32,000 nucleotides of DNA from the NCBI GenBank assembly GCA_045568075.1, contig JBJLBP010000001.1, positions 870,001-902,000 on the forward strand. The letters run 5' to 3'. The notes under the pieces were generated by a model. It did no database searches. It saw only the letters and a list, made by a program, of their open reading frames with translations, and was not told the origin of the DNA. A program made the translations under genes and the position numbers. Source of the stretch: Candidatus Thalassarchaeaceae archaeon (lineage in GTDB: Archaea > Thermoplasmatota > Poseidoniia > Poseidoniales > Thalassarchaeaceae). Positions 4,335 through 26,333 of this stretch are shown here, piece by piece. The number at the start of each line of letters is the position of its first letter. Positions within the stretch are counted from its first letter, which is position 1.

Positions 4335-4541
4335 TCACCTCGGTGTGCTCCTACGCGTGCGTGCGCGGAACAGGTTTCTGCGGCCAATCAGCGAACGTCG
4401 ATGGTCGCGTGACCAAGCCTCTCCTCCTTCTCTACCCTCAGCCGGAGTCAAGGCTTGCCCTTCCAACTCTTCTAGCAAAACTGCAAGAATTGCCGCTGCG
4501 CGGAGTTTGTCCTTCTTTCGAGCCATCCGGTCAAACCTCAT
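4335..4541 (-). CDS. Small ORF translationally coupled between the carboxyltransferase and the biotin carrier; possible carboxylase small (epsilon/delta-like) subunit
   Basis: 68 aa. Its ATG overlaps the carboxyltransferase stop (ATGA at 4538-4541), and its stop lies 4 nt before the carrier ATG. The sequence has an Ala/Leu-rich helix ([16 protein letters not shown]) followed by an Arg-rich tail. Coding status is inferred from coupling only. Confidence 0.45.
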
Positions 4542-6091
4542 AGTGGGATATTGCCGTGTTTACGCGCTGGGCGAATTTCCTCCTTCTCGAGGAGGGCACC
4601 TAGTGCCTTGATCAGCCTCGCTCTGGTTTCACGGGGTTGAATCACATCATCGAGATAGCCCAGAGAGGCTGCTCGATATGGATTCGCGAAGGTTTCTTGG
4701 TAATCGTCAATCAGTCGCTTACGCTCCCCATCGGGGTCGCCTGAGGCACCAATTCTCCTGCGATGGATGATCTGAACGGCACCTTCTGCACCCATTACTG
4801 CCAGTTGGGCGGTTGGCCAGGCGATGTTGTAGTCGCCACGAATGTGTTTACTACTCATCACGTCGTATGCCCCACCGTACGCTTTTCGAGTAATCACAGT
4901 GAGTTTGGGTACGGTGGCTTCGGCGTAAGCGTAGAGCAGTTTTGCTCCGTGACGGATGATTCCTCCCCATTCCTGACTTGCTCCTGGGAGAAAGCCGGGA
5001 ACATCGACGAAAGTCAGTAGTGGTATGTTGAAAGCGTCGCAGAAGCGGACGAATCGGGCTGCCTTCACAGATGCATCAATATCGAGGCAGCCTGCCAGAA
5101 CCTTTGGTTGGTTGGCGACGATACCGATTGTATGACCACCAAGGCGTCCGAAGCCGACCACGATGTTTCCAGCGAAGTCGGCTTGGACCTCAAGGAAGGC
5201 GCCATCATCGAGTGTTGCTTCTATTGCATCGACGATGTCGTAAGGAGTTGTGGAATCATTCGGAATCAGGTCATCAAGAGTCTCGCAATCTCGGTCATGT
5301 GGGTCTGTGGTTGGTTTTGTAGGGGGCTTCTCAAGATTGTTTAGTGGTAGCATATCGACGAGATCTCGAACCAATTCGAGAGCATCGTCGTCATCCTCTG
5401 CGGTGAAATGAGTCACACCTGATCGAGTTGCGTGGGTTGTTGCCCCACCGAGGTCTTCGAAAGTGACTTCTTCATTAGTCACCGTCTTGATAACTTCAGG
5501 CCCGGTGATGAACATATGAGCGGTCTGATCAACCATCACAACAAAGTCGGTTATCGCTGGTGAATAGACCGCTCCACCGGCGCAAGGCCCCATTATCACT
5601 GAAATTTGTGGAATGACTCCGCTTGCACGTACATTGCGAAAGAAGATTTCAGCATAAGATCCCAGACTAGCTACTCCTTCTTGGATTCGGGCTCCGCCAC
5701 TATCGTTGAGACCGATTACCGGTGCTCCGGTCTTCAGCGCCATATCGAGAATCTTGCAGATCTTCAGACCATGCATTTCGCCCAACGAACCGCCGTAAAC
5801 GGTGAAATCTTGGGCGAAGCAGTAAACGGTGCGGCCACCGATAGTTCCGTGGCCACAAACCACACCATCACCGGGAATCACATTGCGGTCCATGTCGAAA
5901 TCTCTACATCGATGTTCGACAAGACCATCCACCTCAACAAAGGAATCCTCATCGAGTAATTGTTCGATTCTTTCGCGCGCGGTCATCTTTCCGCGCGCGT
6001 GCTGAGCAGCGATCCTCTTCTGGCCGCCGCCAGCCTCAGACTGCGCCTTGCGGCGACGCAAGTCATCGATGCGCTCCTTCACACCAGACAT
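4538..6091 (-). CDS. pccB: Acyl-CoA carboxyltransferase (propionyl-CoA carboxylase beta / methylmalonyl-CoA decarboxylase alpha family)
   Basis: 517 aa from [15 protein letters not shown]... Family hallmarks are [49 protein letters not shown] and a GNIPL C-terminus. The 24-aa N-terminal extension of the raw ORF (start 6163) looks non-native. Confidence 0.92.
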
Positions 6092-6209
6092 GGTATGCTG
6101 TGCAACGCGGCAAAGCCGCCCATGAGCATTCCTCATCAGACACCACTGCGCCGAATGCTGCAATCGGTTGCTTGAAGGCCATCAGAGCAGTGCGTCAATC
6201 GACCGTAGC
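6092..6209. promoter_or_regulatory. Divergent intergenic region between the carboxylase operon (-) and the mutase/MeaB operon (+)
   Basis: This is 118 nt between two divergent start codons, so both promoters should lie here. I could not pick out a convincing TATA/BRE by eye. Confidence 0.35.
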
Positions 6210-6644
6210 ATGCGGATAGTAGTCGCCAAACCCGGACTTGACGGGCATGACAGGGGTGCCAAAGTCATCGCCAGAGCTCTCAGAGACGGGGGTCACGAGG
6301 TGATCTACACAGGATTGCGCCGTACTCCAGCGGAGATTGTGCGTATAGTCATGGATGAGGATGCGGCGGCGGTTGGGCTGTCGTCGCTTTCTGGTGCCCA
6401 TGCGGTTCTGATTCCTCGCGTATGTGAGGGCTTACGAGATGCAGACATGGGTGACGTTGTAGTCTTCGCAGGTGGAATTATTCCCGAACAAGACAGGTCC
6501 TCGTTGTACGAAGACGGGGTCAGAGCGGTGTTCGGACCAGGGACAACAACATCGGAGATTCTCGATTTTTTGGTAACTCTCGAACAGCGAGCCGAAGCAG
6601 GCGAGCCTAGAGGAGTTGGTGAAGAGGCAGGGTGGCATTGGTGA
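6210..6644 (+). CDS. Methylmalonyl-CoA mutase, small B12-binding subunit
   Basis: MRIVVAKPGLDGHDRGAKVIARALRDGG carries the DxHxxG cobalamin-binding motif. GLSSLSGAH and GGIIPEQD...GVRAVFGPGT are also present. A TTG at 6168 is an alternative upstream start. Confidence 0.9.
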   Translation: MRIVVAKPGLDGHDRGAKVIARALRDGGHEVIYTGLRRTPAEIVRIVMDEDAAAVGLSSLSGAHAVLIPRVCEGLRDADMGDVVVFAGGIIPEQDRSSLYEDGVRAVFGPGTTTSEILDFLVTLEQRAEAGEPRGVGEEAGWHW

Positions 6645-7510
6645 GCGATGCCGCAGAACTCCTCGAAAAGGCTCGTTCGGGCGACAGACGTTCACTCTCA
6701 AGGCTACTCAGTCATATCGAGGAAGGTGGCCAATCTCCTGTCGAAGGTGGCTCTGGCACATCACTCGGGATTACTGGGCCACCCGGTGTCGGTAAGTCCT
6801 CACTAATCGGACGGATGATCGATGTTTGGACTGGGAGAGGCGAATCGATTGCTGTGCTTGCAGTTGATCCTTCTTCTCCTCGAAGTGGCGGAGCTCTCCT
6901 TGGAGACCGAATGAGGATGAGTAATGCCGATTCATCAGACCTCGTCTATGTCCGTTCATTGGCAACTCGTAATCACCCGGGAGGTCTGATGGATTGTTTG
7001 ACACCAATGGTCGATGTTCTCGCAGCTTGTGGCTGGCAAAACATCGTCATCGAGACAGTAGGCGCGGGTCAAGCGGAGATTCGAGTAGTTGCCTTTGCTG
7101 ACAGAATTCTACTAGTCGACGGCCCCGATCGCGGCGACATTATCCAAGCGGAGAAGGCTGGAATCATGGAACTCGCCGACCTCATCGCCATCAATAAGTC
7201 CGATCTTCCAGACGCCGAACGGGCTGCAAATGCGGTTAGATCAGCTCTCTCTGTTGGAGCCGATGAGAACACGCCGGAGGTATTGCTAGTTTCAGCTCAT
7301 TCTGGAGATGGCATAGAGGAGATAATCGAGGCTCTCTCACAAACCACGACTACCGAAGGAAGAGAGAGATTACGCGTGCGAGAGCGCCTAATTTCAGCCT
7401 GGGACTCAACACTCCTCACCTCACCAAATATCGAATCCACTCTTGCTGCGCTTGAGACCGGAAGCATGACGCTGTCTCAAGCGGTCGAACAAATCAGGAA
7501 AGGGGTCTGA
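6632..7510 (+). CDS. meaB: MeaB/ArgK-type G3E GTPase (methylmalonyl-CoA mutase chaperone)
   Basis: P-loop GPPGVGKSS, VDPSSPRSGGALLGDRMRM, ETVGAGQ, and the NKSD specificity motif. The start (GTG 6632, or GTG 6641) overlaps the stop of the mutase subunit. Confidence 0.9.
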   Translation: MALVSDAAELLEKARSGDRRSLSRLLSHIEEGGQSPVEGGSGTSLGITGPPGVGKSSLIGRMIDVWTGRGESIAVLAVDPSSPRSGGALLGDRMRMSNADSSDLVYVRSLATRNHPGGLMDCLTPMVDVLAACGWQNIVIETVGAGQAEIRVVAFADRILLVDGPDRGDIIQAEKAGIMELADLIAINKSDLPDAERAANAVRSALSVGADENTPEVLLVSAHSGDGIEEIIEALSQTTTTEGRERLRVRERLISAWDSTLLTSPNIESTLAALETGSMTLSQAVEQIRKGV

Positions 7511-8369: not shown

Positions 8370-8897
8370 TCAATTGGTGATGCGTCCAGCATTGTCGAAT
8401 TCGTGACCTTCGTGAAGAAGCAGACGAATCTTTGTCGCCGGGCCACCTTCTCCACTGTAATTCCCGATGACTCGGTCGCTTCGAACGACGCGATGGCACG
8501 GCACGAGGAGGGGCCAGGGGTTCATCGCCATGACCGACCCAACAGCCCGACTCGCTCCGGGATATCCAGCACCTACGGCTAACTCTGCATAGGACACAGT
8601 TTGGCCGAATCCTGCCTCGCGAACAAGACAGCGTAGCACCTGTGTTTGGAAGGAGGTTAGACTGTTTTCATCGAGCTGAGGAAATGGTGCATTTGACCCT
8701 GCGAAGTATTCTAGAGTCCAATTCTTCGCCACATCGAGGTGCTCATTCGAGCTATCACTACTCCGCACCTCGCCCCATCCGATTTTAGACAATCCAGCAT
8801 TGGTAGCTTCGAAGTGAATCGGGCCGATTGGTGTATCCACCCAATCTCGGACCATATTTCTAATCTGGAATTCAGAGCCCTTGACCTTATCGCCCAT
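8370..8897 (-). CDS. ogt: Methylated-DNA--protein-cysteine methyltransferase
   Basis: Active-site motif LVPCHRVV, with the preceding YAELA...GxxxASRAVG helix-turn-helix segment typical of Ogt/MGMT. Confidence 0.9.
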   Translation of the reverse strand: MGDKVKGSEFQIRNMVRDWVDTPIGPIHFEATNAGLSKIGWGEVRSSDSSNEHLDVAKNWTLEYFAGSNAPFPQLDENSLTSFQTQVLRCLVREAGFGQTVSYAELAVGAGYPGASRAVGSVMAMNPWPLLVPCHRVVRSDRVIGNYSGEGGPATKIRLLLHEGHEFDNAGRITN

Positions 8898-8914: not shown

Positions 8915-9229
8915 TTAGGATTCGTCGCTGACTGACGAATTTTCGTCAGTCTCAGCGGATTCATTCCCACCCTGAATCGCTTCCATGCCGACAATTTCGT
9001 AATTCGAAGGGAAAAGAGCAACAGCAACTCCACCCACAATCGCAGCAACCCCGAGGTAGAATTGCTGTTGGACCATTATCAATTCAAGCCCAATCGCTAC
9101 AAGAAGAAGTCCACCAAGATTGGATATCCACACCAAATTCTTGAAGGTTCCAAGAGAAACTCCTGTTGAATTTTCAGTTCGCTTAGGCCCGAATTCCGCG
9201 CCAAATCTAACAGGATCCTCTTTCTCCAT
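8915..9229 (-). CDS. Small membrane protein (2 TM, acidic C-terminal tail), last gene of the Rieske/cyt b operon
   Basis: 104 aa with two hydrophobic helices (LGGLLLVAIGLELIM and LGVAAIVGGVAVALF). It starts 4 nt after the ferredoxin stop. Confidence 0.6.
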   Translation of the reverse strand: MEKEDPVRFGAEFGPKRTENSTGVSLGTFKNLVWISNLGGLLLVAIGLELIMVQQQFYLGVAAIVGGVAVALFPSNYEIVGMEAIQGGNESAETDENSSVSDES

Positions 9230-9233: not shown

Positions 9234-9641
9234 TCACCTATCGATCATTAATATCGCGTCTGTTGGACAAGCAAGGACGCAGAGTTTGCAACCTGTGCAG
9301 GGGTCGCGCAGCACGCGTGCTTTGCGATTGACGTCGACGTTCATGATGGGACTTGCTAAAGGTGTGTCAAAGAGTTCGATCGCATCGTCATCACAGACTA
9401 TCATACAATGGTCACAACCAATGCATAACTCCTCCTTCACCCACGCTACTGCATCCTCTCCACCCTTCAGTTTAGCTCTCTCTTCTGCACGCATTGCATT
9501 CATCATCATACGAATGCGACGTTGTTCGCTCGCTCGGCGAGCAGCGAGGTCGGGAATCTCAGTCATCCGAATCGATGCTGCCGGCTCTGACTTCTCAAGG
9601 CTGCGGTCGCCGCCAGTCAGATTTTCTGACTCCCCAATCAA
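9234..9641 (-). CDS. 2x[4Fe-4S] ferredoxin-domain protein with a charged N-terminal extension
   Basis: It has CIGCDHCMIVCDDDAI (CxxCxxCxxxC followed by D rather than P) and CTGCKLCVLACPTDAI. About 70 aa of a Glu/Arg-rich segment come before them. The gene starts 13 nt after the fusion gene stop, and the exact start is uncertain. Confidence 0.8.
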   Translation of the reverse strand: MIGESENLTGGDRSLEKSEPAASIRMTEIPDLAARRASEQRRIRMMMNAMRAEERAKLKGGEDAVAWVKEELCIGCDHCMIVCDDDAIELFDTPLASPIMNVDVNRKARVLRDPCTGCKLCVLACPTDAILMIDR

Positions 9642-9654: not shown

Positions 9655-12444
9655 TCACTGGCGCTTTGCGTCGATTTGCCGTGCTAGGAAGGAGACGACG
9701 TCAAGGATCTCGAAGTCGTGTCTTGGGTCACCTTCGAACTTGAGGCACTCGAAGTGACTGACACACTTCGGGCAACTCGTGAGCATAATCTCAGCACCTG
9801 TTGCCTTGACTTCGTCGAATCGCTCTAGGCGCAGCGCCCTACTATTCTCGTTGCAGGACATCATGCTAGATACACCGCAGCAAAGGGCATCCTCGCCGGT
9901 GTGCTCCATCTCGACCAGATCTACACCGTCGATCGCACGAACGAGGTCGCGCGGCTCTTCGTAGATGTTCATCTGACGTCCAAGTCGACAGGGGTCGTGG
10001 TAGGTGACGGTGACATCTTCAGGGGTAGCCAGATCCATGTCGAAGCCATTCTCGATGAGATATTCGGTCGTGTGCATGACCTTCATGTCCTCAAGTTCGT
10101 AATCCATTGCAAAGGTGCGGAAGCACTCTGCACAAGATGTGACTAAGGTGTCGATTCCACTGTCTCCCAGCTTCTTCTGATTGTAGGCCTTGAGTTTCTC
10201 GAAGACTTCTGTCATTCCTTGCCACTTCTGATCGTGTCCACAGCACTTTAGGAAGTCTCGACCGAGGTAAGTGACATCCTTCCCCATTTCATCAAAGATG
10301 GTGAATGCGGCAGTCGTTGTTTCTCCGAGGTTCATTTCTCCTTCATTGACATGGCTGAAAATCATCTCTTGGTCAATGTAATCGACGCAGCCGGGGTAGT
10401 AGCCAACGCTCGAATCGATTGGATACTCATCAATTGGAATGAATGCTGAGTTTGCATCTTCCTCCGCCTCTGCAGCCAATACTGCCTGGAGTATAGAGTG
10501 GGGGATTTCGGCAGCAGGTGGGCCGCCGACAATCAGGTTACGGCGAATGTCGACGTAGGAGTCATAATCGACCAATTGCGGGCAGGCGTTGGTGCAAGCG
10601 GTACATGTCAGACATGAGTACAATGGAACGCCGTCATCTTCGTTATTCCATGTATTGTAGATGATGTTGAGTTTGTCTCCAGCGTTGAAGAGGCGAACTG
10701 GACAAGCGTCATCACAAAGGTCGCAGCCGTAGCACTTGTTCATTTCCCATTCGTAGCCGCGTGCCATACTGCGCATCAGCATGAAGACGACTGCACCAAT
10801 TCCAAGGCATGGGATGAACATCGAATAGATCAACTTGGCATCAAGGCTCTTCGGATTCTTCTGGAAGGTTGGATTCTCAAGGCTCATCGCCTCAAGATCA
10901 GTTCCAGCAGGTAAGTCGGCGCGGTTTGCAGCTGCTCCGTTCGCGTCAAGTAGGAGGGGTTGGAAGGCTTTAGCCGAGAAGTCGGTGATCATTGTCACGG
11001 TCTCATTGACCTCGCTCGAAGAGATGCTATATTCGAGATTGTAATTACCCGGTGCGAGTTTTAGGGTGGTGCTACCACACTCGCCATCTGTTGACCAAAG
11101 TACCTTTCCTGCATCATTACTGATACTGAGGTCCTGAGTGTGGCTGCCAGCGTTGCGCACAGTCGTACGGAAGTTACAACCGACATCGACGAAGACGCTT
11201 GATAGTCCAATGTCTTCGACGTGTATGACATCAGTCCACGAATGTTCGATAATTGTCGAATCCACATTACCGTCGTATTCGTATGAACTACTACCAGCAA
11301 CGTTGCGGCCACTTTCGATATCGCCATGTCCATTGACACCTTCGAAGTCGATGATGGTGCTCTGAGTTGGTTGGAAAATACCCCAATTCGTCCAATGTTC
11401 GGCTGGGATGACGCACCATTTGGTATGGTCTTCACCTTCGTCTAAACTTGACCAAACTCCAAGTTCAGAAGAATCGGAGAAAGTAAGACACTCATCGCCC
11501 CAATTATCCCAATCGTCCCCTTTGCCATAATAGACGAGTGTGTCTGCGGGCTGGCCACGCATTGTCTCCAACTCCTCTACATCGTCCATTGCACCAAGTC
11601 CGCCGTAATCCCAGAAGCCGCCTTCGTAAATCGGCCAGGTAACTGCAGAGATAAGTACGGCTAGGATAATGGAACCAATTGCTACTTGCTTGCCCATATT
11701 CGGCGTCAATCTAGCACCGATTGAATTGACGAGGAACCATCTGACGCTGAAAAACAATACAGTGAAGATGAAAATTCCAGTGAGAATCCACGGCACCGCA
11801 TTGAATACCTCAGCCGTCCAAGGCGCCTGCCTTCCACAATCAAAGATATGATGCGAATTCGCCCAGCAATAATCCGTACGGTCTTTGGAATATAATTCGA
11901 GGAAGATATTGATTGAGAAGACTGAGATGAACCACACGTGTGCGAGATAGACTGCACCAGCGGTCGCAAACCAAGGGTCTTCGGCTGGGCGCTTCTCACG
12001 GCCTCCAAGGAAAGGTGGAAGAGCGAGGATACCAACTGGAATACCTGTCAGGAAGGCGCCCCACCAAGCAGCGTTCCATGAAATCACAGGGGATCCAAGG
12101 AACTCACCGATTGGACCGGCTGGAATAACAAATTGTGGTAGATATTCACCCCATCTTAGATATCCATAGGAGAACAGAACATACCAGTCAGGGAATACGA
12201 AGCCAGCCTGAGCAAATGGATCCGCTGCACTGTGCAATGGCGGTGGAATCAACCAGCAATAAAATGCCAGAACCATCATCATCGCTGCGAGAATAATCGA
12301 ATCGCGCAGGACCTCAGTAGGCCAGAAAGCGTGACCCATGTGAACTCGCCTGCGCTCTTTCTCACCTTCGAGGAGACTGCTTTTCTCACGAACATATGTG
12401 TCCGCGATGCGTCCGAATCTATCGATCATACCCATGTCAAACAC
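9655..12444 (-). CDS. Fusion protein: cytochrome b C-terminal (subunit IV-like) membrane domain + extracytoplasmic domain + HdrD/GlpC-like Fe-S/CCG domain
   Basis: 929 aa. The N-terminal region has HAFWPTEVLRD, PDWYVLFSYGYLRW (PEWY-type motif), LPPFLGGREKRP and 5 TM helices. A ~250-aa acidic domain and a sixth TM follow. Residues 568-929 carry CYGCDLCDDACP and CLTCTACTNACP plus two CCG units (PGC..KCCG..SCAEC and DPC..LCCG..SCPKC). The start is GTG 12444 or ATG 12435. Confidence 0.85.
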   Translation of the reverse strand: MFDMGMIDRFGRIADTYVREKSSLLEGEKERRRVHMGHAFWPTEVLRDSIILAAMMMVLAFYCWLIPPPLHSAADPFAQAGFVFPDWYVLFSYGYLRWGEYLPQFVIPAGPIGEFLGSPVISWNAAWWGAFLTGIPVGILALPPFLGGREKRPAEDPWFATAGAVYLAHVWFISVFSINIFLELYSKDRTDYCWANSHHIFDCGRQAPWTAEVFNAVPWILTGIFIFTVLFFSVRWFLVNSIGARLTPNMGKQVAIGSIILAVLISAVTWPIYEGGFWDYGGLGAMDDVEELETMRGQPADTLVYYGKGDDWDNWGDECLTFSDSSELGVWSSLDEGEDHTKWCVIPAEHWTNWGIFQPTQSTIIDFEGVNGHGDIESGRNVAGSSSYEYDGNVDSTIIEHSWTDVIHVEDIGLSSVFVDVGCNFRTTVRNAGSHTQDLSISNDAGKVLWSTDGECGSTTLKLAPGNYNLEYSISSSEVNETVTMITDFSAKAFQPLLLDANGAAANRADLPAGTDLEAMSLENPTFQKNPKSLDAKLIYSMFIPCLGIGAVVFMLMRSMARGYEWEMNKCYGCDLCDDACPVRLFNAGDKLNIIYNTWNNEDDGVPLYSCLTCTACTNACPQLVDYDSYVDIRRNLIVGGPPAAEIPHSILQAVLAAEAEEDANSAFIPIDEYPIDSSVGYYPGCVDYIDQEMIFSHVNEGEMNLGETTTAAFTIFDEMGKDVTYLGRDFLKCCGHDQKWQGMTEVFEKLKAYNQKKLGDSGIDTLVTSCAECFRTFAMDYELEDMKVMHTTEYLIENGFDMDLATPEDVTVTYHDPCRLGRQMNIYEEPRDLVRAIDGVDLVEMEHTGEDALCCGVSSMMSCNENSRALRLERFDEVKATGAEIMLTSCPKCVSHFECLKFEGDPRHDFEILDVVSFLARQIDAKRQ

Positions 12445-12450: not shown

Positions 12451-13320
12451 TCAATGCGGCTCCGCAATACCCTGAACCCAGACGATGAACAAATGTGCCA
12501 GAATGAGCGCAGTGACAACGACAGGTAAGATGAACACGTGTAGGAAATACATGCGCGTGACCGTTTGGCCCGAAAGCGATGTTCCTGCGAACATGGCGGT
12601 TGCAACCCACCCTCCGATGAGAGGGGTCGAGTTTGCCATGTTGATTCCGATTGTTGCAGCGCCGAAAGCCAGGCTATCCCAAGGAAGGAGGTAGCCCGAG
12701 TAGCCGAAGAAGATTGTGAAGAACATCAAGGCGACTCCGATAAGCCAGTTGAGTTCACGTGGGTTTCTGTATGCTCCCGTGAAATAAACGCGACACATAT
12801 GCAGGAACACAGCAGCCACCATGAAGTGCGTCGTCCAATGATGGATTGAGCGGATGATGTAGCCGAATGGAAGCTGAACCATGATGAATTCCATCGATGA
12901 GTAAGCAGGGGTCGGGTCGCCTTCTCCTCCCGGCACGTAATAGAGTCCGAGAACCGTCCCGGTAATGACTAGGATAACGAAGGCGAGGAAGGAGATCCCT
13001 CCGAGACAGTATAGAGGGTACCAATACCAAATGATTCGAAGTTTGTATTTCTCAGCGTGCGTCAGAGGCATCTGACGGTGCACGCTGTAATACGCATCCC
13101 GACTCATTCCCCAGTAATCTTGGATGCGGAAGCGAGTATCAAGCCAGGAGAATGCCCAGAGGAAGGATTTCTCCGCCAACCCCATACTTCCCGCGCTGGT
13201 CTCAACAGCACGAAGGATGTCCTTGCGGGGCATATCATCGCGCTCTTTACGCAGAGTGAATGCTACCAGCACAACGATGAGGGCGATGAAGAGCCAAAGG
13301 AACCAGAATTGTAGCATCAT
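12451..13320 (-). CDS. Cytochrome b, N-terminal (b6-like) di-haem subunit
   Basis: Helix B reads HWTTHFMVAAVFLH (H-x13-H) and helix D reads HVFILPVVVTALILAH (H-x14-H, the b6-type spacing). YSGYLLPWD and the NWLIGV region are also present. An extra N-terminal TM and ~100 aa precede the core. GAGGTGAG comes before ATGATG. Confidence 0.9.
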   Translation of the reverse strand: MMLQFWFLWLFIALIVVLVAFTLRKERDDMPRKDILRAVETSAGSMGLAEKSFLWAFSWLDTRFRIQDYWGMSRDAYYSVHRQMPLTHAEKYKLRIIWYWYPLYCLGGISFLAFVILVITGTVLGLYYVPGGEGDPTPAYSSMEFIMVQLPFGYIIRSIHHWTTHFMVAAVFLHMCRVYFTGAYRNPRELNWLIGVALMFFTIFFGYSGYLLPWDSLAFGAATIGINMANSTPLIGGWVATAMFAGTSLSGQTVTRMYFLHVFILPVVVTALILAHLFIVWVQGIAEPH

Positions 13321-13326: not shown

Positions 13327-14181
13327 TCAGTCGCAATATGTGTACCAGTCTTTGAAGTCCGGGAGGGCTTCAATCGTATCACCCGTAATAACCCACGGGA
13401 TGAGAGGGAGGCCGACAGGAGCTGGGCCACCTGTTCGGCGGATGCCGATAAAATCGAACTCCGCTCCAGTCGAACGGTTTCGACTTCGATTCTTTTCAAT
13501 CGCCGTCGGGTCAAAGCGACTAGAGTGGCAGATACAGAACAATTTGTTGCCACCAGCATCGACCGCGCCGGGCGTCCATTGATTATTTGTGAAATCATTC
13601 TGGACCAATTGCCAGCCCGGAATACAACATAGGTGAGTACAGCGCGAGAAGATGACAACAAGATTGTCGTGAATTGATAGTGGAGCGAGTGCGGGATCTT
13701 CCTCAAGTTCGTAGCCACTACCAACGTATTTCCCGCTCTCGGTATATCCGTCCATGAATTGGAAGCGAGGCTTATCCGTAGCGATTGGAGTCGACGAGTT
13801 CTCGGAGTGAGGTACGTACATCACATTGACTGGAAGACCGGACCAGACACCCTGAGCGCCGACCATTCCGGTCGGGCTGTCAGCGGCGGCATTGACGAAT
13901 GCGGAGTATGACATAGACTCGAGGTGCCGATCACCATACCAAACAGAGTCTTCAGCACCTGAAGGCACCCAGAAGCGAACGGCAGTGTCGCCGCCGGACG
14001 ATTCTGAAGCCCCCATCAATAAGGATGCGAAGCCGATGCTACCGAGGCTAGCCATGGTGATGACACCGGCGGCGGTGTTGAACGAATAACGCATGAATTC
14101 GCGACGATCGATGACGGGATTAGATTCGGAAACCTCATCATCGGCACCCGGAAGTGAACGCAGCCTGAACCTTCTCGCCAT
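13327..14181 (-). CDS. Rieske [2Fe-2S] protein with a twin-arginine signal/anchor
   Basis: Box I is CTHLCC and box II is CICHSS, about 20 aa apart. The N-terminal DRREFMRYSF... plus a hydrophobic stretch is a Tat-type motif. GAGGTG lies upstream of the ATG. Confidence 0.9.
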   Translation of the reverse strand: MARRFRLRSLPGADDEVSESNPVIDRREFMRYSFNTAAGVITMASLGSIGFASLLMGASESSGGDTAVRFWVPSGAEDSVWYGDRHLESMSYSAFVNAAADSPTGMVGAQGVWSGLPVNVMYVPHSENSSTPIATDKPRFQFMDGYTESGKYVGSGYELEEDPALAPLSIHDNLVVIFSRCTHLCCIPGWQLVQNDFTNNQWTPGAVDAGGNKLFCICHSSRFDPTAIEKNRSRNRSTGAEFDFIGIRRTGGPAPVGLPLIPWVITGDTIEALPDFKDWYTYCD

Positions 14182-14184: not shown

Positions 14185-14634
14185 TCACACCTCGTATTGT
14201 TTCCATCCTTCTGTGTCATTGGGTGGGATGAACTTGTTTCGCCTATGCTTGACAACAATTACGTCAGGCATGACAAATCGCAGATAGACGATTCCCATCA
14301 AAATTACGGTTAGTAGAGTCATTGCTAGATGGAAGGAAAGAAGCTGCTGGTCCCAGTTTTTGAACAGGCCGTAAGAGAGAGTTCCAGCCCAAAACAGAGT
14401 CCATAGAATTCCCCAAAGTGCGAATACGATTACCAACCAAGATTCGCCGGATGGAGATATACTAGCTCTGATGATTGTGCCCGGCTCTGGGTCGTTGAAC
14501 ACGCCATGGTCGACCGCTGCCTCGTAGGTTTCCTCGCTTAGGTCTACGCCGGACAATGCATCGCGTGCATCATCGATACTGACCTTACCCGACTTGACTT
14601 CGCGGAGAAGCTTCATGACGATATCGTCTTTCAC
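14185..14634 (-). CDS. Membrane protein (soluble N-terminal helical segment + 2 TM), function unknown
   Basis: 149 aa. Hydrophobic helices are WLVIVFALWGILWTLFWAG and HLAMTLLTVILMGIVYL. It overlaps the upstream gene by 4 nt and ends 3 nt before the Rieske start. Confidence 0.65.
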   Translation of the reverse strand: MKDDIVMKLLREVKSGKVSIDDARDALSGVDLSEETYEAAVDHGVFNDPEPGTIIRASISPSGESWLVIVFALWGILWTLFWAGTLSYGLFKNWDQQLLSFHLAMTLLTVILMGIVYLRFVMPDVIVVKHRRNKFIPPNDTEGWKQYEV

Positions 14635-15446
14635 AGTTGGTCACCCCTTCGAAGATGCTTGATGCGCAGTTTGAGTAGGTTGCTTCGACCCACGTAATGG
14701 CGAGAGAATCCGTATCTCAAGAAGAGTCCGCAGAATAGAATCACAAGAATCACCGCTCCAAAGCCGAGCAGGCCAAGCCAGTGGGCTCGGAGTGCAGCTC
14801 CCATCTCGTGCAGGTCGACGTGAGCCTCGGATGGTGCCGGCGGTTCGATCTCACCATTTCCGCTGAATACAGTCCGAGTTTGGCCAGAGTCTTCGCCTTC
14901 ATCAACCGAGACTGTCAGACGATTCCAGCGGTCGAGTTCAGATGGGATCCCGTCGCCATTAACGGAGTTGCCAGCAAGCCAGATAGTGATTACTCCGCTA
15001 CCAGTTTCAGGAGCGGTCCAGACAATCATCCAACTGCGATCTGCAGTCTCGCTACCGGAGCCTGTGTGAGTCAGGCTAGTAGAGTCATCTTCCCAATTTT
15101 GGACCAGGTTCTCGTATCCTTCTGCTCCGGCGAGCGAACCTGAACTAACGCGCATGGAGAAGCCGCCGGTGTTAGATTCAGTGTCAATAGCTGGCCCTCC
15201 AATCAATTGAATCTTGAGAGTGTAGGTTGTTCCTGCAGAATAATGGTAAGGTAATCCGTCGAGGATTACGGTGACTGAATTATCAGGGAGTTCAGCGTGG
15301 CATGTGCAACCTGCTAGGGCGACGTCTCCCTCGCCATCCTCGTCGCCACCGATGCCATTGGAATAACCTTGAGTTGAACCCGCTAGAAGAAGCGCGAAGC
15401 AGGCAAGAACCAGCAGTCGGTGGGAGGACATTTGATGTGCCTTCAT
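14631..15446 (-). CDS. Secreted, C-terminally membrane-anchored beta-rich protein with a single CxCH motif; first gene of the Rieske/cyt b operon
   Basis: GAGGT lies 6 nt upstream of the ATG at 15446 (MKAHQMSSHRLLVLACFALLLAGSTQG is a signal peptide). The mature part has GCTCHAE, GGFSMRV, WTAPETGSGVITIWLAGNSVNGDG. A C-terminal TM (LGLLGFGAVILVILFCGLFL) and a basic tail follow. Confidence 0.75.
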   Translation of the reverse strand: MKAHQMSSHRLLVLACFALLLAGSTQGYSNGIGGDEDGEGDVALAGCTCHAELPDNSVTVILDGLPYHYSAGTTYTLKIQLIGGPAIDTESNTGGFSMRVSSGSLAGAEGYENLVQNWEDDSTSLTHTGSGSETADRSWMIVWTAPETGSGVITIWLAGNSVNGDGIPSELDRWNRLTVSVDEGEDSGQTRTVFSGNGEIEPPAPSEAHVDLHEMGAALRAHWLGLLGFGAVILVILFCGLFLRYGFSRHYVGRSNLLKLRIKHLRRGDQL

Positions 15447-15595
15447 CCTATGACCTCTATTACGAAGCAATCCAGCCGTCTTCGGGATATCAAGGTTTCA
15501 GTTTGACCCCTACGGGGTCCCTCTCTGTGACCTCCTTCCACCGCCTCGTTCGGAACCTGCGAAACCTCAAACGAATCAACGCTCTCGATGGTTCT
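15447..15595. promoter_or_regulatory. Divergent intergenic region (Rieske/cyt b operon on -, TPR gene on +)
   Basis: This 149-nt gap between divergent starts must carry the operon promoter. It contains a perfect 6-bp/3-nt-loop hairpin, GACCCC-TAC-GGGGTC, at 15505-15519. Confidence 0.35.
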
Positions 15596-16020: not shown

Positions 16021-16926
16021 GTGCACGAGGGGGCGATACTCATCGCAGGAGTCGGTGGGCTAGGATGTACCTGGGCGGATGCTGCCCATAGCGAGTGCGA
16101 TGGCCTCGCTGACCTACTCTTGATAGATGCTGACGAGTCCTCTTTCCGAGGTTCTGGACAAGCGCATTGTCTGCACCTTGATGCGGTAGGGGATGGAAGT
16201 GGCGCGGCTGCTCTACCTAACCTCGCAGCTCACAGATTAACTGAGGGACTCGATGCCCTTGACCCACTCCTCGAAAAGGCAGAACTGGTCTTCATTATGA
16301 CGGGACTTGGTGGAGGTACTGGATCAGGGGCAGCGAATGAGTTGGCACGTCTTGCTCGAGCAAGAAACTGCTTGGTTCTGAGTGTAGCTGGATTGCCTTT
16401 CGCCGAACAACCACTGCGAAGCGCAATCGCGAACGCAGCTCTTCCCGCGCTGGAAAAACAATCCCACGTATGCATACGCGTAAGCATGGAGAGATTGGCG
16501 TGGTATGCCCGAGCTCGAGGTGCAGATTGGCAACAGGGCTCGGGATGGATACAGGATCTGGTAGAGGGTCTAGTAACGACTCTTGCTAAGGTGGGCAAGA
16601 TGAATCTTGATTTGATGGATCTGAGAACCGTTGTTGAACATCACGGTGAAGCAACATTGATTGTAGGCTCCGGGACTGTTGTTGACCCCTCTGGAGTGGT
16701 CGATGTCGCGCGCCGTTCGCCGCTTACTGAGGTGGATGTTTCTGGGGCGAAAGGATGTATGATTCAGGTCGAAGGAGGACCTGATATGACTCTCGCCCAT
16801 CTCAATCTATTGAGTGAATCTCTCGTCAGTAGCCTCCACCCAGATTGTCAGGTAATTCTTGGAGCGCGTGCGAGCGACGAGATGGTCGGACGTCTTCGGA
16901 TAGTCGCTGTTGTCAGCGGACTTTGA
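16021..16926 (+). CDS. Divergent FtsZ/tubulin-superfamily GTPase (core only, no C-terminal tail)
   Basis: Tubulin signature GLGGGTGSGAA (T4), T7-like NLDLMDL, and an FtsZ-like C-terminal domain (GAKGCMIQVEGGPDMTL...RIVAVVSGL). The T1 loop is degenerate (GVGGLGCT). The start is GTG and the protein is 301 aa. Confidence 0.8.
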   Translation: MHEGAILIAGVGGLGCTWADAAHSECDGLADLLLIDADESSFRGSGQAHCLHLDAVGDGSGAAALPNLAAHRLTEGLDALDPLLEKAELVFIMTGLGGGTGSGAANELARLARARNCLVLSVAGLPFAEQPLRSAIANAALPALEKQSHVCIRVSMERLAWYARARGADWQQGSGWIQDLVEGLVTTLAKVGKMNLDLMDLRTVVEHHGEATLIVGSGTVVDPSGVVDVARRSPLTEVDVSGAKGCMIQVEGGPDMTLAHLNLLSESLVSSLHPDCQVILGARASDEMVGRLRIVAVVSGL

Positions 16927-16983: not shown

Positions 16984-17295
16984 ATGCCCAAACCCAGCAA
17001 GGCTGCTCGCGGGAAGCACCGATGGGTCGGAGTAGAGGTAAATGGTGCGGGACTGAGTCGTGCTGAGTGCGAGTCGAGAATAGGAGAGATTCTGAGTCCA
17101 ATTAGTTTCAGAATGTTTGACATGCGTAGCGATTCTGAATCTGCTCTACTCATTCTCAAGGTCGGGCTTGATGATTACGATTCTACTAGAGAAATTATGG
17201 AAGCTACCGAAGGTGTCTGCACCAAAACTTCCTCGGGTAAGATTAGGCTTGTACGCGAGCGACTGGGACTGCCTCGTCCGGTCAGAAAGAGATGA
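16984..17295 (+). CDS. rnp2: RNase P protein component 2 (Pop5 homologue)
   Basis: 103 aa. RGKHRWVGVEV parallels archaeal Pop5 R.KKRYIAFKV, and the C-terminal TSSGKIRLVRERL parallels VSGTIKRLKRKF. The call is based on remembered family motifs only. Confidence 0.6.
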   Translation: MPKPSKAARGKHRWVGVEVNGAGLSRAECESRIGEILSPISFRMFDMRSDSESALLILKVGLDDYDSTREIMEATEGVCTKTSSGKIRLVRERLGLPRPVRKR

Positions 17296-18667
17296 CTAAT
17301 TCTCCGACATCGTCGATTACAAGTAATTCTGAACCTGCTATCGCGACAAGTGCACCCGATTCCTTGAGCCCTGCTATTCTCACAGGTACGTCTGTACGGG
17401 TGGCTTCTGCCCCCCTAGACAGGGCTCTTGACATCGCAGTCCAGGAGCCTCTTTGCAATTGAGAAGATTCAGGGGTTGCGATAGGAACTGAATCATCGAG
17501 GATGGAAGCGATTGCCGCGTCAACGATTTCGAAAGCACTTACGTCATCAATATCTCCAATGGATTCAGTCCAACCTGCTACATCTCGACCTTCGACATTT
17601 GAGGGATTTTGATTCAGTCCAATTCCAATTCTTACACGGCCGTCTAGTGAACTTGATTCGACGAGAATCCCGCCAGCCTTCCGGCCGTCAATCAATAGAT
17701 CATTCGGCCACTTCAAATCCATTGAGAGAGCATCGGCCACGCACGCACCAACAGCGACCTGCAATAGGCCAGGAGATCGATCGTTCAATACCGATTGATT
17801 AAGACTCCAAGTTGCAGTCAAATCACCTTCTTTGGATTGCCATTGTGAGCCCCTTCGCCCCCGTCCCGATTGTTGAATTCCTGCTCTGATTCTTTGCCAT
17901 CCTTCATTGGGTAACGCGCGTGCATCATCCATTGTTGAATCAGACTCTTCGAGATAATGTGCTTCTGCAGTATCCCCTGGTCTCCAAAAGGCCACAGTCT
18001 CAAGTGTCTCATCACCGACTCTCTCTATTGCTAGACGACGAGAGGACCATCCTTTGAGACTCCAATCAATCGGCGAACTCAGTGATTCGGGGTCTGTTCG
18101 GAAAAGTAGAATGAAAGTCTTGTTTCGAGATTCCCCCTCACTCAATGACTCCAGTAGAATATGAGACCAACCTAGTTCTCCTTCGTCGCCCAGAGCAGCT
18201 TCCTCCAAAGGGCCAAGACTCACCCCTTCCTCAACGGCAGGGTCGAGATATGGTAAATTCCAAACTATGACGTCGGCGTCGGAAGGGATCTTCCAACCTT
18301 CTTCTCCGACACCGCTCTCCTCAACGCGAATAGATTCGGTAACTCCGGCCTCGATAGCGTTGCCTCGGGTCGCTGCAACCGCGATAGGATTGATGTCGAA
18401 AGCAGATACTTTCCATCCAACGAGAGCCATAGCGATTGAGATTGCTCCTGAGCCGCAACCAACTTCGACGAGATGCCCTGGAGGGCACGTCAAACGGGCC
18501 AGACCATCTAACATCAAGCGAGTGTCTCGGCGAGGGGGGTAAACAGTCGGAGGAATCGTGAGTTCGATCACCTCACCGGACGGAATTTTGAATCCTACAG
18601 CCATACTTCGACCGGTAGATGAAATCTCAATCTCCCGTTCAATTTTATCGAATCCCAGCGTAATCAC
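17282..18667 (-). CDS. Fusion: HemK/Mtq2-like SAM methyltransferase (N-terminal) + biotin--protein ligase BirA (C-terminal)
   Basis: The N-terminal half has VYPPRRDTRLM, motif I VEVGCGSGAISIA, and motif IV VIVWNLPYLDP (an NPPY variant). The C-terminal half has QQSGRGRRGSQWQS (GRGRxGRxW), LKWPNDLLIDGRKAGGILVES, and a short SH3-like tail. Confidence 0.85.
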   Translation of the reverse strand: MITLGFDKIEREIEISSTGRSMAVGFKIPSGEVIELTIPPTVYPPRRDTRLMLDGLARLTCPPGHLVEVGCGSGAISIAMALVGWKVSAFDINPIAVAATRGNAIEAGVTESIRVEESGVGEEGWKIPSDADVIVWNLPYLDPAVEEGVSLGPLEEAALGDEGELGWSHILLESLSEGESRNKTFILLFRTDPESLSSPIDWSLKGWSSRRLAIERVGDETLETVAFWRPGDTAEAHYLEESDSTMDDARALPNEGWQRIRAGIQQSGRGRRGSQWQSKEGDLTATWSLNQSVLNDRSPGLLQVAVGACVADALSMDLKWPNDLLIDGRKAGGILVESSSLDGRVRIGIGLNQNPSNVEGRDVAGWTESIGDIDDVSAFEIVDAAIASILDDSVPIATPESSQLQRGSWTAMSRALSRGAEATRTDVPVRIAGLKESGALVAIAGSELLVIDDVGELVISF

Positions 18668-26200: not shown

Positions 26201-26333
26201 GGTTCGTAACACTGCTGACCGAATCATCCAATTCGAGTATGGTGAGGATGGAATCGACCCAGCGCGTAGTCGCAAGGGTCTACCATTCGACATCACTAAG
26301 GTTCTCGATGACGCCCTCGGGGGTGGTAAGTGA
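23232..26333 (+). CDS. rpoA1: RNA polymerase subunit A' (Rpo1N)
   Basis: 1033 aa. N-terminal zinc motifs [17 protein letters not shown], plus [21 protein letters not shown], and the catalytic [10 protein letters not shown]. The ATG overlaps the rpoB stop (ATGA). The gene contains a ~120-150-aa insertion (see findings). Confidence 0.97.

What the first reader, a model, noticed from the sequence alone, without database searches (positions are those of the whole stretch)
9655..12444. One 929-aa protein joins a cytochrome b C-terminal membrane domain, an extracytoplasmic domain and a cytoplasmic HdrD-like Fe-S/double-CCG module
Reading the translation, residues ~38-285 carry cytochrome b C-terminal / subunit IV hallmarks: HAFWPTEVLRD, PDWYVLFSYGYLRW (the PEWY-type Qo-loop motif), LPPFLGGREKRP, and five TM helices. 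Residues ~290-540 are acidic, beta-rich, have 4 Cys and no TM. A sixth TM follows (LIYSMFIPCLGIGAVVFMLM). Residues 568-929 (nt 9658-10743) carry two ferredoxin motifs (CYGCDLCDDACP, CLTCTACTNACP) and two complete CCG units (PGC..KCCG..SCAEC and DPC..LCCG..SCPKC), which is the HdrD/GlpC/DsrK arrangement. Subunit IV is known to start on the cytoplasmic side. Six TMs would then put the middle domain outside and the Fe-S/CCG module in the cytoplasm. That self-consistent topology argues against a frameshift or assembly artefact. HdrD-like modules are known partners of NarI-type b cytochromes (DsrMK, HmeCD) and of type-E succinate dehydrogenases. I do not know of a described case where one is covalently attached to the Rieske/cyt b-type cytochrome b.
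Basis: partly seen in the sequence, partly recalled or inferred. Interest (0 to 1): 0.85.

Follow-up and report, generated by a model that had tools for sequence, protein, structure and literature searches.

The report
Cytochrome b subunit fused to HdrD-like module
In abundant marine planktonic archaea (Marine Group II), one subunit of the respiratory Rieske/cytochrome b complex is permanently fused to a cytoplasmic iron-sulfur module of the heterodisulfide-reductase type; the fusion is real and strictly conserved, and it probably wires the complex's inner face to a dedicated ferredoxin, but nobody has tested this.

Summary

- **N-terminal domain.** Residues ~20-185 are a divergent cytochrome b C-terminal/subunit IV domain. 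Pfam misses it directly, but a family profile hits solved cytochrome b chains at E=2e-15. The Qo-site motif PDWY is invariant.
- **Middle region.** Two extra TM helices and a 240-aa beta-sandwich are a Marine Group II-specific insertion on the outside.
- **C-terminal module.** A sixth TM leads to a cytoplasmic 2x[4Fe-4S] plus double-CCG module with all 18 ligand cysteines conserved.
- **Conservation.** The fusion is intact in 75 of 76 species-representative loci that hold both halves. It sits in a seven-gene operon with a Rieske protein, a b6-type cytochrome b carrying the haem ci cysteine, and an RnfB-like ferredoxin.
- **Relatives.** Shorter fusions without the insert, and a half-split version, occur in other archaea. 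Some lie next to HdrABC/MvhD-like genes.
- **Prior notice.** An "hdrD-like gene" beside complex III was noted in 2022, and cytochrome b fused to other Fe-S domains in 2014. I found no description of this architecture.
- **Best reading.** An Fe-S wire links ferredoxin with the haem bH/ci-Qi site. The direction of electron flow is unproven.
- **Classification.** New variant of a known kind.

The parts
9655..12444 (-). Fusion gene (929 codons from GTG; probable true start at Met4, nt 12435): subunit IV-like domain + insertion + HdrD-like module
11890..12387 (-). Residues ~20-185: cytochrome b C-terminal / b6f subunit IV homologue (helices E, ef loop, F, G)
   Evidence: profile A1 against PDB cytochrome b 2e-15 and subunit IV 3e-9; relatives pass Pfam PF00032
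12181..12192 (-). Qo-site motif PDWY (residues 85-88), invariant in the family
   Evidence: PDWY associated with menaquinol/low-potential Rieske in PMC4122944
11623..11820 (-). Residues 209-274: two extra TM helices (TM4, TM5), absent from the short-form relatives
10855..11577 (-). Residues ~290-530: extracytoplasmic beta-sandwich domain (GOLD/CBM-like), fast-evolving, two conserved Cys, no cofactor motif
10765..10848 (-). Residues 533-560: TM6, equivalent to the last TM of the short forms, returns the chain to the cytoplasm
10576..10746 (-). Residues 567-623: 2x[4Fe-4S] ferredoxin-type dicluster domain (C571/574/577/581, C611/614/617/621)
   Evidence: Pfam Fer4_8/9/10; seven of the eight cysteines invariant and C571 >=90% conserved in 82 sequences
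10123..10395 (-). Residues 684-774: first CCG unit (C686, C734, C735, C771, C774)
9751..10008 (-). Residues 813-898: second CCG unit (C819, C855, C856, C891, C894)
   Evidence: Pfam PF02754 best stretch 813-898
12451..13320 (-). Cytochrome b6-type N-terminal subunit (four haem His; helix-D His spacing 14; Cys105 in YCLGG = haem ci ligand position)
13327..14181 (-). Rieske iron-sulfur protein (RREF Tat motif, CTHLCC ... CICHSS)
14185..14634 (-). Small two-TM subunit candidate (weak DUF7318)
   Evidence: DUF7318 gene at the same operon position in distant relatives
14631..15470 (-). Exported 'choice-of-anchor V' protein with C-terminal TM anchor and invariant GCTCH; candidate outer-face partner
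9234..9641 (-). RnfB-like 2x[4Fe-4S] ferredoxin, 13 nt downstream of the fusion gene
8915..9229 (-). Small two-TM protein (weak DUF7322), last conserved gene of the operon

Best explanation
**Shown**
- This is a genuine, conserved subunit of the Marine Group II (Thalassarchaeaceae/Poseidoniales) Rieske/cytochrome b6-type complex.
- The subunit IV-like part (helices E-G with the PDWY Qo motif) would complete the quinol-oxidising site together with the neighbouring cytochrome b6-like and Rieske proteins.
- The chain then makes two extra TM helices, an outside beta-sandwich and a sixth TM. It ends in the cytoplasm as an HdrD-like module with two cubane [4Fe-4S] sites and two complete CCG (non-cubane cluster) sites.

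**Inferred**
- The four clusters form an electron wire on the cytoplasmic (N) face of the complex. The wire would run between the haem bH/haem ci-Qi site and the RnfB-like ferredoxin encoded immediately downstream.
- The most likely direction is inward. Reduced ferredoxin from 2-oxoacid and amino-acid catabolism would feed electrons through the Fe-S wire to reduce quinone at Qi. The quinol is then re-oxidised at Qo of the same complex.
- On this reading the complex doubles as an energy-conserving ferredoxin:quinone entry point. It would be a hard-wired analogue of the proposed ferredoxin-to-haem ci route of cyclic electron flow in b6f.
- The direction of flow and the true cytoplasmic partner are not established.

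**How the confidence splits**
- The architecture, topology and reality of the fusion: above 0.9.
- The Fe-S wire to the Qi side: about 0.6.
- The inward ferredoxin-to-quinone direction: about 0.45.
- The stated confidence of 0.5 is for the whole statement.
For: **Architecture and reality**
- establish the three-part architecture.
- More than 100 colinear clusters come from independent assemblies.
- Both halves lie in one ORF in 75 of 76 loci.

**Operon**
- The seven-gene operon has gaps of 13 nt or less and is conserved in the Thalassarchaeaceae loci long enough to show it.

**Cofactor ligands**
- Seventeen of the 18 Fe-S ligand cysteines are invariant across 82 sequences down to 32% identity; C571 is conserved in 90% or more.

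**Topology**
- Parity is preserved across forms: short forms have 4 TM, long forms 6 TM, and the 1334-aa forms 6 TM. The Fe-S module always follows the last TM.

**Link to low-potential cytoplasmic carriers in every context examined**
- MGII: RnfB-like ferredoxin.
- L083 and L086: polyferredoxins.
- L085: flavoprotein + polyferredoxin + FlpD.
- L081: HdrC-, HdrB- and HdrA-like genes plus FlpD/MvhD.
- L086: a half-split version, with subunit IV fused to the dicluster domain and a separate CCG protein. This shows the association pre-dates the full fusion.

**N-side partner**
- The partner cytochrome b is b6-type, with the haem ci cysteine (YCLGG) present in 80 of 84 loci.

**Structural precedent**
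- The closest solved structure is M. smegmatis EtfD (phmmer 4.4e-22; Foldseek 1.7e-14). In EtfD the same four-cluster module is a wire from a cytoplasmic donor via haem b to menaquinone (PMC13083937).

**Independent suggestion**
- Ferredoxin entry at complex III was proposed for related archaea in PMC9038741.
Against: - No experiment exists, and no complex model could be built. The distance from the proximal cluster to haem bH/ci is therefore unknown.
- Unlike EtfD, which carries modified, non-catalytic clusters, both CCG units here keep the full five-cysteine HdrB/HdrD pattern. That pattern would also fit thiol/disulfide chemistry.
- In the anaerobe-like contexts with HdrABC/MvhD and multihaem cytochromes, flow could run outward or be part of flavin-based bifurcation.
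- The ferredoxin matches rnfB only below the curated cut-off (48.1 vs 68.7 bits).
- Whether haem ci is actually attached in an archaeon is untested.
Confidence: 0.5

Rival explanations
1. Outward flow, i.e. quinone-based electron bifurcation. Quinol oxidation at Qo sends one electron to the Rieske/high-potential branch. The other goes through haems bL/bH and the Fe-S wire to reduce a cytoplasmic low-potential acceptor (ferredoxin or a disulfide) instead of, or as well as, quinone at Qi.
For: - There is a complete Qo site and Rieske protein, with the low-potential chain ending next to an Hdr-type module.
- Relatives are clustered with HdrABC/MvhD-like bifurcation machinery and multihaem cytochromes.
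- The full catalytic-type CCG motifs are retained.
Against: - Moving the electron to the N side works against the membrane potential.
- Ferredoxin reduction from a menaquinol-level bH is strongly uphill.
- MGII are aerobic heterotrophs with many ferredoxin-producing reactions and no obvious need for this route (PMC6336850; inference).
- The Qi-site features, including the haem ci cysteine, are retained.
Confidence: 0.17
2. Thiol/disulfide enzyme. The double-CCG module is catalytic, as in HdrD, DsrK or TfrB. It would couple oxidation or reduction of a cytoplasmic (hetero)disulfide or protein trisulfide carrier to the quinone pool through the cytochrome b complex. The ferredoxin would be accessory.
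For: - Both CCG units keep the five-cysteine HdrB-type ligand set, including the CC pair that EtfD has lost.
- The best NCBIfam similarity is to thiol:fumarate reductase TfrB (2.7e-31).
Against: - No curated equivalog cut-off is approached: TfrB 108.8 vs 385 bits, DsrK 29.8 vs 400 bits.
- MGII are not known to make CoM/CoB (my knowledge).
- No DsrC-like or thiol-cofactor gene is in the operon.
- Non-catalytic CCG proteins such as GlpC and LutA also keep the motif (my knowledge).
Confidence: 0.15
3. ETF-type entry. Like mycobacterial EtfD, the module accepts electrons from an electron-transferring flavoprotein (beta-oxidation and amino-acid degradation) rather than from ferredoxin, and delivers them to quinone via the cytochrome b haems.
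For: - EtfD is the closest solved relative of the module.
- MGII are predicted fatty-acid and protein degraders (PMC6336850).
Against: - No ETF gene is in the operon or the window.
- A ferredoxin gene is strictly co-conserved instead.
- The cluster ligands differ from EtfD.
Confidence: 0.1
4. Artefact: a chimeric assembly, a frameshift joining two genes, or a decaying pseudo-fusion.
For: One locus of 76 (L039) has the two halves in separate ORFs.
Against: - The gene is full-length and colinear in more than 100 clusters and hundreds of contigs from independent projects.
- Both halves are in one ORF in 75 of 76 loci.
- Seventeen of the 18 Fe-S ligand cysteines are invariant and the eighteenth (C571) is conserved in 90% or more.
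- Independent short-form fusions exist in other archaeal lineages.
Confidence: 0.01

Closest known systems
Cytochrome b6f / Bacillus-type menaquinol:cytochrome c reductase (split cytochrome b with subunit IV and haem ci)
   Same: - Split cytochrome b.
- The N-terminal subunit is closest to cytochrome b6 (2.6e-41), with b6-type His spacing and the YCLGG haem ci cysteine.
- The C-terminal part is homologous to subunit IV.
- A Rieske gene lies upstream.
   Different: - Subunit IV carries a 740-aa extension: 2 TM, an outside beta-sandwich, 1 TM, and an HdrD-like module.
- The Qo motif is PDWY, not PEWY.
- There is no cytochrome f/c1 gene. Instead there is a 'choice-of-anchor V' exported protein.
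- The host is an archaeon.
HdrDE / DsrMK / HmeCD-type complexes (NarI-type cytochrome b + HdrD-like subunit)
   Same: A cytoplasmic 2x[4Fe-4S] + double-CCG module with full cysteine sets, attached to a membrane b-type cytochrome that talks to the quinone or methanophenazine pool.
   Different: - The membrane partner is a Rieske/cytochrome b (bc/b6f-type) complex, not a NarI/HdrE-type dihaem protein.
- The attachment is covalent.
- No curated family cut-off is reached.
Mycobacterial EtfD (PDB 9ojn; PMC13083937)
   Same: - A single polypeptide joins a haem-b membrane domain to the same four-cluster Fe-S/CCG module.
- It is the best sequence and fold match among solved structures.
- In EtfD the module works as a wire from a cytoplasmic donor to menaquinone.
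   Different: - EtfD's membrane domain has five NarI-like helices that bind haem themselves. Here the fused helices bind no haem, and the haems sit in a separate b6-like subunit.
- EtfD has a linear [3Fe-4S] cluster (C-T instead of C-C) and a His-ligated cluster. Here both CCG units are canonical.
'PDWF-FeS' cytochromes b of a few bacteria (Kao & Hunte 2014, PMC4122944)
   Same: Cytochrome b including its Qo motif is covalently fused to cytoplasmic Fe-S or flavin electron-transfer domains. This was described from sequence only.
   Different: - Those are full-length cytochromes b with the PDWF motif.
- They are fused to 4Fe-4S + MvhD or to ferredoxin/flavin reductase domains.
- They have no Rieske gene in the cluster.
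- Here there is a split b, PDWY, a CCG-type module and a Rieske gene.
Complex III locus of Ca. Angelarchaeales (Diamond et al. 2022, PMC9038741)
   Same: [quoted passage not shown]
   Different: That paper treats hdrD as a neighbouring gene. It does not report that it contains the cytochrome b C-terminal/subunit IV domain, and it includes no analysis of ligands, topology or distribution.

Membership tests
Cytochrome b C-terminal domain / b6f subunit IV (Pfam PF00032) | Significant match to the family profile | tested here: inconclusive
   There is no direct Pfam hit at E<=0.01, and the single sequence against PDB subunit IV gives E=0.034. However, the family profile A1 hits cytochrome b C-terminal halves at 2e-15. 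Relatives at 30-43% identity pass the Pfam gathering score.
Cytochrome b C-terminal domain / b6f subunit IV (Pfam PF00032) | Qo motif (PxWY) in the ef loop after helix E | tested here: met
   PDWY at residues 85-88 is invariant in 23 diverse sequences; P85, D86 and W87 are also invariant in the 82-sequence alignment, where Y88 is conserved in 90% or more. It aligns with PEWY of solved cytochromes b.
Cytochrome b C-terminal domain / b6f subunit IV (Pfam PF00032) | Three TM helices E-G starting from the cytoplasmic side | tested here: met
   Hydropathy and positive-inside distribution; AF2 helices 42-65, 125-141 and 157-189.
Cytochrome b C-terminal domain / b6f subunit IV (Pfam PF00032) | Encoded next to a four-His cytochrome b N-terminal subunit and a Rieske protein | tested here: met
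Cytochrome b C-terminal domain / b6f subunit IV (Pfam PF00032) | Forms a functional quinol-oxidation site | not testable with these tools
   Needs biochemistry or a structure.
HdrD-type subunit (2x[4Fe-4S] + two CCG domains) | Two CX2CX2CX3CP ferredoxin motifs | tested here: met
   Residues 571-582 and 611-622; Pfam Fer4_8/9/10; seven of the eight cysteines invariant and C571 >=90% conserved.
HdrD-type subunit (2x[4Fe-4S] + two CCG domains) | Two CCG units, each CXnCCXnCXXC | tested here: met
   PF02754 at 9.7e-23 with two stretches. Cysteines C686/734/735/771/774 and C819/855/856/891/894 are invariant.
HdrD-type subunit (2x[4Fe-4S] + two CCG domains) | Partner is a NarI/HdrE-type dihaem cytochrome b | tested here: not met
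   The partner is a b6-type cytochrome b plus Rieske protein. No NarI-like gene is in the operon.
HdrD-type subunit (2x[4Fe-4S] + two CCG domains) | Reaches a curated equivalog score (HdrD relatives: TfrB, DsrK, GlpC, HmcF, TmcB) | tested here: not met
   TfrB 108.8 vs 385 bits; GlpC 47 vs 278 bits; DsrK 29.8 vs 400 bits.
HdrD-type subunit (2x[4Fe-4S] + two CCG domains) | Heterodisulfide (CoM-S-S-CoB) reductase activity | not testable with these tools
   No assay is possible. The host lineage is not methanogenic.
EtfD (mycobacterial ETF:menaquinone oxidoreductase) | Homologous soluble four-cluster module | tested here: met
   phmmer 4.4e-22; Foldseek 1.7e-14.
EtfD (mycobacterial ETF:menaquinone oxidoreductase) | Linear [3Fe-4S] site (Cys-Thr in the first CCG unit) and His-completed second cluster | tested here: not met
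   The query has KCCG and SCAEC where EtfD has C-T-G and C-P-H-C (alignment; ligands).
EtfD (mycobacterial ETF:menaquinone oxidoreductase) | Own haem-binding five-helix membrane domain | tested here: not met
   The membrane part is subunit IV-like.
b6f-type cytochrome b (partner subunit, haem ci) | CxGG cysteine at the b6 Cys35 position and 14-residue His spacing in helix D | tested here: met
   Cys105 aligns with Cys35 of 1q90_B. YC[LF]GG is present in 80 of 84 loci, and H-x14-H is found. Actual haem attachment was not tested.
PDWF-FeS clade of cytochrome b (Kao & Hunte 2014) | PDWF motif, full-length b, no Rieske in the cluster, 4Fe-4S/MvhD or flavin reductase fusion | tested here: not met
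   This protein has PDWY, a split b, a Rieske gene present and a CCG-type module.

The most novel reading that the evidence does not exclude
A b6-type Rieske/cytochrome b complex in the ocean's most abundant planktonic archaea has a built-in ferredoxin- or Hdr-type port on its N face. It would run either a ferredoxin-primed Q cycle or quinol-driven bifurcation to a low-potential cytoplasmic acceptor.

The ferredoxin-primed version has electrons entering at haem ci/Qi. That would be the natural, covalently fixed counterpart of the long-debated ferredoxin-to-b6f route of cyclic electron flow. Either version would be a mode of energy coupling not demonstrated for any bc/b6f complex. It would also resemble the 'membrane-anchored dehydrogenase' ancestry that has been proposed for these complexes.
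Probability: 0.4. Interest if true: 0.8.

Novelty: new variant of a known kind. Interest (0 to 1): 0.62.

Why it matters
- **Ecological reach.** Marine Group II archaea are among the most abundant heterotrophs of the surface ocean and remain uncultured. Their 'complex III' has been called lineage-specific and incomplete, and their lone 'RnfB' has been unexplained (PMC6336850).
- **What this explains.** The missing subunit IV is hidden inside a gene annotated only as 'Fe-S oxidoreductase/HdrD'. The orphan ferredoxin belongs to the same operon. Together these give a concrete, testable model for how reduced ferredoxin is coupled to aerobic respiration in these organisms.
- **Mechanistic interest.** A natural covalent link between an Hdr-type cluster chain and a haem ci-containing cytochrome b complex is a ready-made system for studying electron exchange between cytoplasmic carriers and the Qi site.
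- **Annotation.** Thousands of database entries are affected.

Tried and rejected
- **Direct domain searches.** Direct Pfam/NCBIfam detection of the cytochrome b C-terminal domain failed. It was rescued by a family profile.
- **Genome scan.** The genome-contig scan with the N-terminal profile was saturated by 80 Thalassarchaeaceae loci. It therefore gave no taxonomy for the distant fusions. Their hosts are known only from a few source labels: Thermoplasmata and Ca. Geothermarchaeales.
- **Complex modelling.** No multimer prediction is offered and model coordinates are not exposed. The key haem-to-cluster distance could not be measured.
- **Literature.** Ten searches found no description of this fusion. 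Dibrova et al. 2013, the most likely place for an earlier mention, could not be retrieved.
- **Unfused relative.** Context of a standalone subunit IV-like relative (P0180) was uninformative because the contig is only 936 bp.
- **Rejected readings.** Assembly artefact. Fe-S module outside the cell, judged from TM parity and charge bias. Membership of HdrD, DsrK, GlpC, TfrB or EtfD as such.

Full report
**1. The observation**

- Hydropathy gives six TM segments: 49-67, 125-147, 164-182, 216-234, 254-272 and 538-556. K/R-rich loops fall on the side predicted to be cytoplasmic.
- Pfam finds two CCG units (9.7e-23) and a 4Fe-4S dicluster domain in residues 567-898. It does not find Cytochrom_B_C.
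- The single sequence matches b6f subunit IV only weakly, at E=0.034, although on the correct region including PDWY/PEWY.
- Homologues begin at Met4, so the real product is probably 926 aa.

**2. Is the N-terminal part really cytochrome b?**

An exhaustive search with residues 1-565 found 140 cluster representatives.

- The more distant full-length hits pass Pfam's own Cytochrom_B_C cut-off.
- Many of them also carry Fer4 + CCG (P0175, P0204, P0205, P0239, P0165).
- A 23-sequence alignment of the N-terminal domain has PDWY invariant.
- As a profile, that alignment hits the C-terminal halves of solved cytochromes b at 2e-15 and b6f subunit IV at 3e-9.

The homology covers residues ~20-185, i.e. 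helix E, the ef loop, and helices F and G. TM4, TM5 and the following domain are not cytochrome b-derived.

**3. Not an artefact**

- More than 100 protein clusters at 84-100% identity, from ENA, JGI, NCBI, Logan and Tara assemblies, are colinear over the whole length.
- The window's host is a Thalassarchaeaceae (Marine Group II b, Poseidoniales) archaeon. The best genome match, L001, is 98% identical.
- Among 80 species-representative loci, 76 hold both halves. In 75 of those, both halves are in one ORF; only L039 is split.
- In an 82-sequence alignment reaching 32% identity, seven of the eight ferredoxin-type cysteines and all ten CCG cysteines are invariant; the eighth, C571, is conserved in 90% or more.

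**4. Anatomy and topology**

The AlphaFold2 model (mean pLDDT 78.8) shows helices at the six predicted TM positions and a well-folded C-terminal module.

The middle region was modelled alone at pLDDT 92.7. It is a beta-sandwich whose nearest solved folds are GOLD, CBM and collagen-binding domains. It has no recognisable cofactor motif. It evolves faster than the rest of the protein, at 28-51% identity against 57-73% over the whole protein for the same MGII sequences.

Short-form relatives (543-660 aa) have four TM helices, with the Fe-S module directly after the fourth. The MGII long form has six, and the 1334-1349-aa forms also have six, with a ~680-aa insert. The number of TM helices stays even, so the Fe-S module stays on the same side as the N-terminus. 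The MGII insertion (residues ~186-534) therefore adds two TM helices plus an outside domain between helix G and the last helix.

**5. Genomic context**

The gene is the fifth of seven tightly packed genes, with gaps of 13 nt or less. In order they are:

- an exported 'choice-of-anchor V' protein with a C-terminal TM anchor;
- a small two-TM protein;
- a Rieske protein with a Tat motif (CTHLCC/CICHSS);
- a cytochrome b6-like N-terminal subunit;
- the fusion gene;
- an RnfB-like 2x[4Fe-4S] ferredoxin;
- a small two-TM protein.

This order is conserved in the Thalassarchaeaceae loci long enough to show it.

The cytochrome b subunit is closest to cytochrome b6 (2.6e-41). Its Cys105 aligns with Cys35, the haem ci ligand. 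The YC[LF]GG motif is present in 80 of 84 loci, and the helix-D histidines are 14 residues apart, as in b6. Kao & Hunte reported the CxGG motif only in Firmicutes, cyanobacteria/chloroplasts and one mixed clade (PMC4122944). Its presence in these archaea is therefore noteworthy in its own right.

**6. Relatives elsewhere**

Short-form fusions occur in other archaea. Source labels include Thermoplasmata and Ca. Geothermarchaeales. They always lie downstream of a cytochrome b N-terminal gene and a probable Rieske gene. What follows the fusion gene is informative:

- **L081:** HdrC-like, HdrB-like and a 1010-aa HdrA-like flavoprotein, then FlpD/MvhD. The cluster is flanked by multihaem cytochromes c.
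- **L085:** a FAD oxidoreductase, a polyferredoxin and FlpD.
- **L083:** a polyferredoxin.
- **L086:** subunit IV is fused only to the dicluster domain. A separate CCG protein, a ferredoxin and a small protein follow.

The association of this cytochrome b complex with an HdrC+HdrB-type module and a (poly)ferredoxin is thus older than the complete fusion. It has been fixed in several gene arrangements.

**7. The Fe-S module compared with known ones**

The only solved chain found by sequence is M. smegmatis EtfD (4.4e-22). It is also the top fold match (1.7e-14), ahead of LutA and HdrB.

In EtfD the four clusters form a wire, with cluster spacings of 7-9 A, from the cytoplasm to a haem b and a menaquinone site (PMC13083937). 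EtfD's first CCG unit has Cys-Thr and holds a linear [3Fe-4S] cluster. Its second cluster is completed by a histidine. Both changes are interpreted as making the clusters non-catalytic and oxygen-tolerant.

The MGII protein keeps Cys-Cys and lacks that histidine (alignment). It therefore looks like HdrB/HdrD in its ligands.

It reaches no curated NCBIfam cut-off: TfrB 108.8 vs 385 bits, GlpC 47 vs 278 bits, DsrK 29.8 vs 400 bits.

**8. Mechanism**

*Shown:* a complete set of parts for a b6-type Rieske/cytochrome b complex, a cytoplasmic four-cluster module tethered to its subunit IV, and a co-conserved ferredoxin.

*Inferred:* the module exchanges electrons between the ferredoxin and the haem bH/ci-Qi site. 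I favour inward flow, from ferredoxin to quinone at Qi with re-oxidation at Qo, for three reasons:

- EtfD works this way.
- MGII are aerobic heterotrophs lacking the rest of Rnf (PMC6336850).
- The same idea was raised for Angelarchaeales (PMC9038741).

Three alternatives remain open: outward, bifurcation-type flow; thiol/disulfide catalysis; and ETF as the donor. The retained catalytic-type CCG ligands and the HdrABC/MvhD contexts keep these alternatives alive.

**9. Novelty**

Database names for this protein are only 'Fe-S oxidoreductase', 'heterodisulfide reductase subunit D' or '(Fe-S)-binding protein'. None mentions cytochrome b.

Prior partial notices:

- Diamond et al. 2022 saw an hdrD-like and an rnfB-like gene beside complex III.
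- Tully 2019 noted an 'MGII-specific complex III' and an orphan RnfB.
- Kao & Hunte 2014 described full-length cytochromes b fused to 4Fe-4S/MvhD or ferredoxin/flavin domains in three bacteria, without a Rieske gene.

I found no description of subunit IV fused to an HdrD-type double-CCG module, nor of the MGII insertion. One likely source, Dibrova et al. 2013, could not be read.

**Verdict**

This is a real and ordinary-looking gene with an unrecognised architecture. It is a new variant of known kinds of system, and it matters because of the abundance of its hosts and the mechanistic question it opens.

Noticed in passing
window 12451-13320 (-): The cytochrome b6-like subunit of this archaeon carries YCLGG, identical to the cyanobacterial/heliobacterial haem ci-binding motif. 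It is conserved in 80 of 84 related loci. A 2014 survey found CxGG only in Firmicutes, cyanobacteria/chloroplasts and one mixed clade. The protein also has a ~100-aa N-terminal extension with an extra TM (residues 5-23).
   Followed up: partly
window 14631-15470 (-): The first gene of the operon is an exported 'choice-of-anchor V' domain protein (NCBIfam 2.6e-26). It has an invariant GCTCH motif and a very strongly conserved C-terminal TM and basic tail (AHWLGLLGF...LRYGFSRHY.GRSNLL.LRIKH). It is a candidate outer-face redox partner replacing cytochrome c1/f, but its cofactor is unknown. A distant relative's equivalent gene has a weak Reeler hit.
   Followed up: partly
window 13327-14181 (-): The Rieske protein is unusually long (284 aa) and is missed by Pfam entirely. 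Only NCBIfam TIGR01416 sees it, below its cut-off (4.9e-11). The cluster boxes are CTHLCC and CICHSS, with a large insertion between the TM anchor and the cluster domain.
   Followed up: partly
P0316, P0351, P0368; L027, L037, L075: Some MGII versions of the fusion protein are 1334-1349 aa, with a ~680-aa extracytoplasmic insert instead of ~250 aa. In a few loci the stop-to-stop reading frame spans 1014-1045 codons. The outside domain is a hot spot for expansion. In distant relatives the cytochrome b N-terminal subunit itself carries Big_5 domains, and one subunit IV relative carries Laminin_G_3 (P0199).
   Followed up: partly
L081 3729-13632: An uncultured archaeal contig encodes a possible Rieske/cytochrome b-Hdr supercomplex of an anaerobe. 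The gene order is: multihaem cytochrome c, Rieske, cytochrome b, subunit IV-HdrD fusion, HdrC-like, HdrB-like, a 1010-aa HdrA-like protein, FlpD/MvhD, and another multihaem cytochrome. The host taxonomy was not determined.
   Followed up: partly
L039: This is the only locus of 76 in which the N-terminal and Fe-S parts lie in separate ORFs (356 and 588 codons). It is probably a frameshift or sequencing error in that MAG; not examined.
   Followed up: no
window 17282-18667 (-): A 461-aa ORF combines a PrmA/MTS-type methyltransferase domain (residues ~49-140) with a biotin/lipoate protein ligase domain (263-350). This is an unusual pairing.
   Followed up: no
window 16021-16926 (+): A short (301-aa) tubulin/FtsZ-family protein has both the GTPase and FtsZ_C domains at modest scores (1e-16 and 9e-16). 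It could be a divergent FtsZ/CetZ-type paralogue.
   Followed up: no
window 19549-27910 (+): An RNA polymerase gene block: an unsplit subunit B (1228 aa), A' (1033 aa) and A'' (526 aa), with overlapping stop/start codons.
   Followed up: no
window 4538-7510: Propionyl/methylmalonyl-CoA pathway genes lie a few kb from the respiratory operon: a carboxyl transferase (1.5e-200) and a MeaB GTPase. This is consistent with the amino-acid and fatty-acid catabolism proposed for MGII. An Ogt-type methyltransferase gene (8370-8897) follows the operon in most related loci.
   Followed up: no
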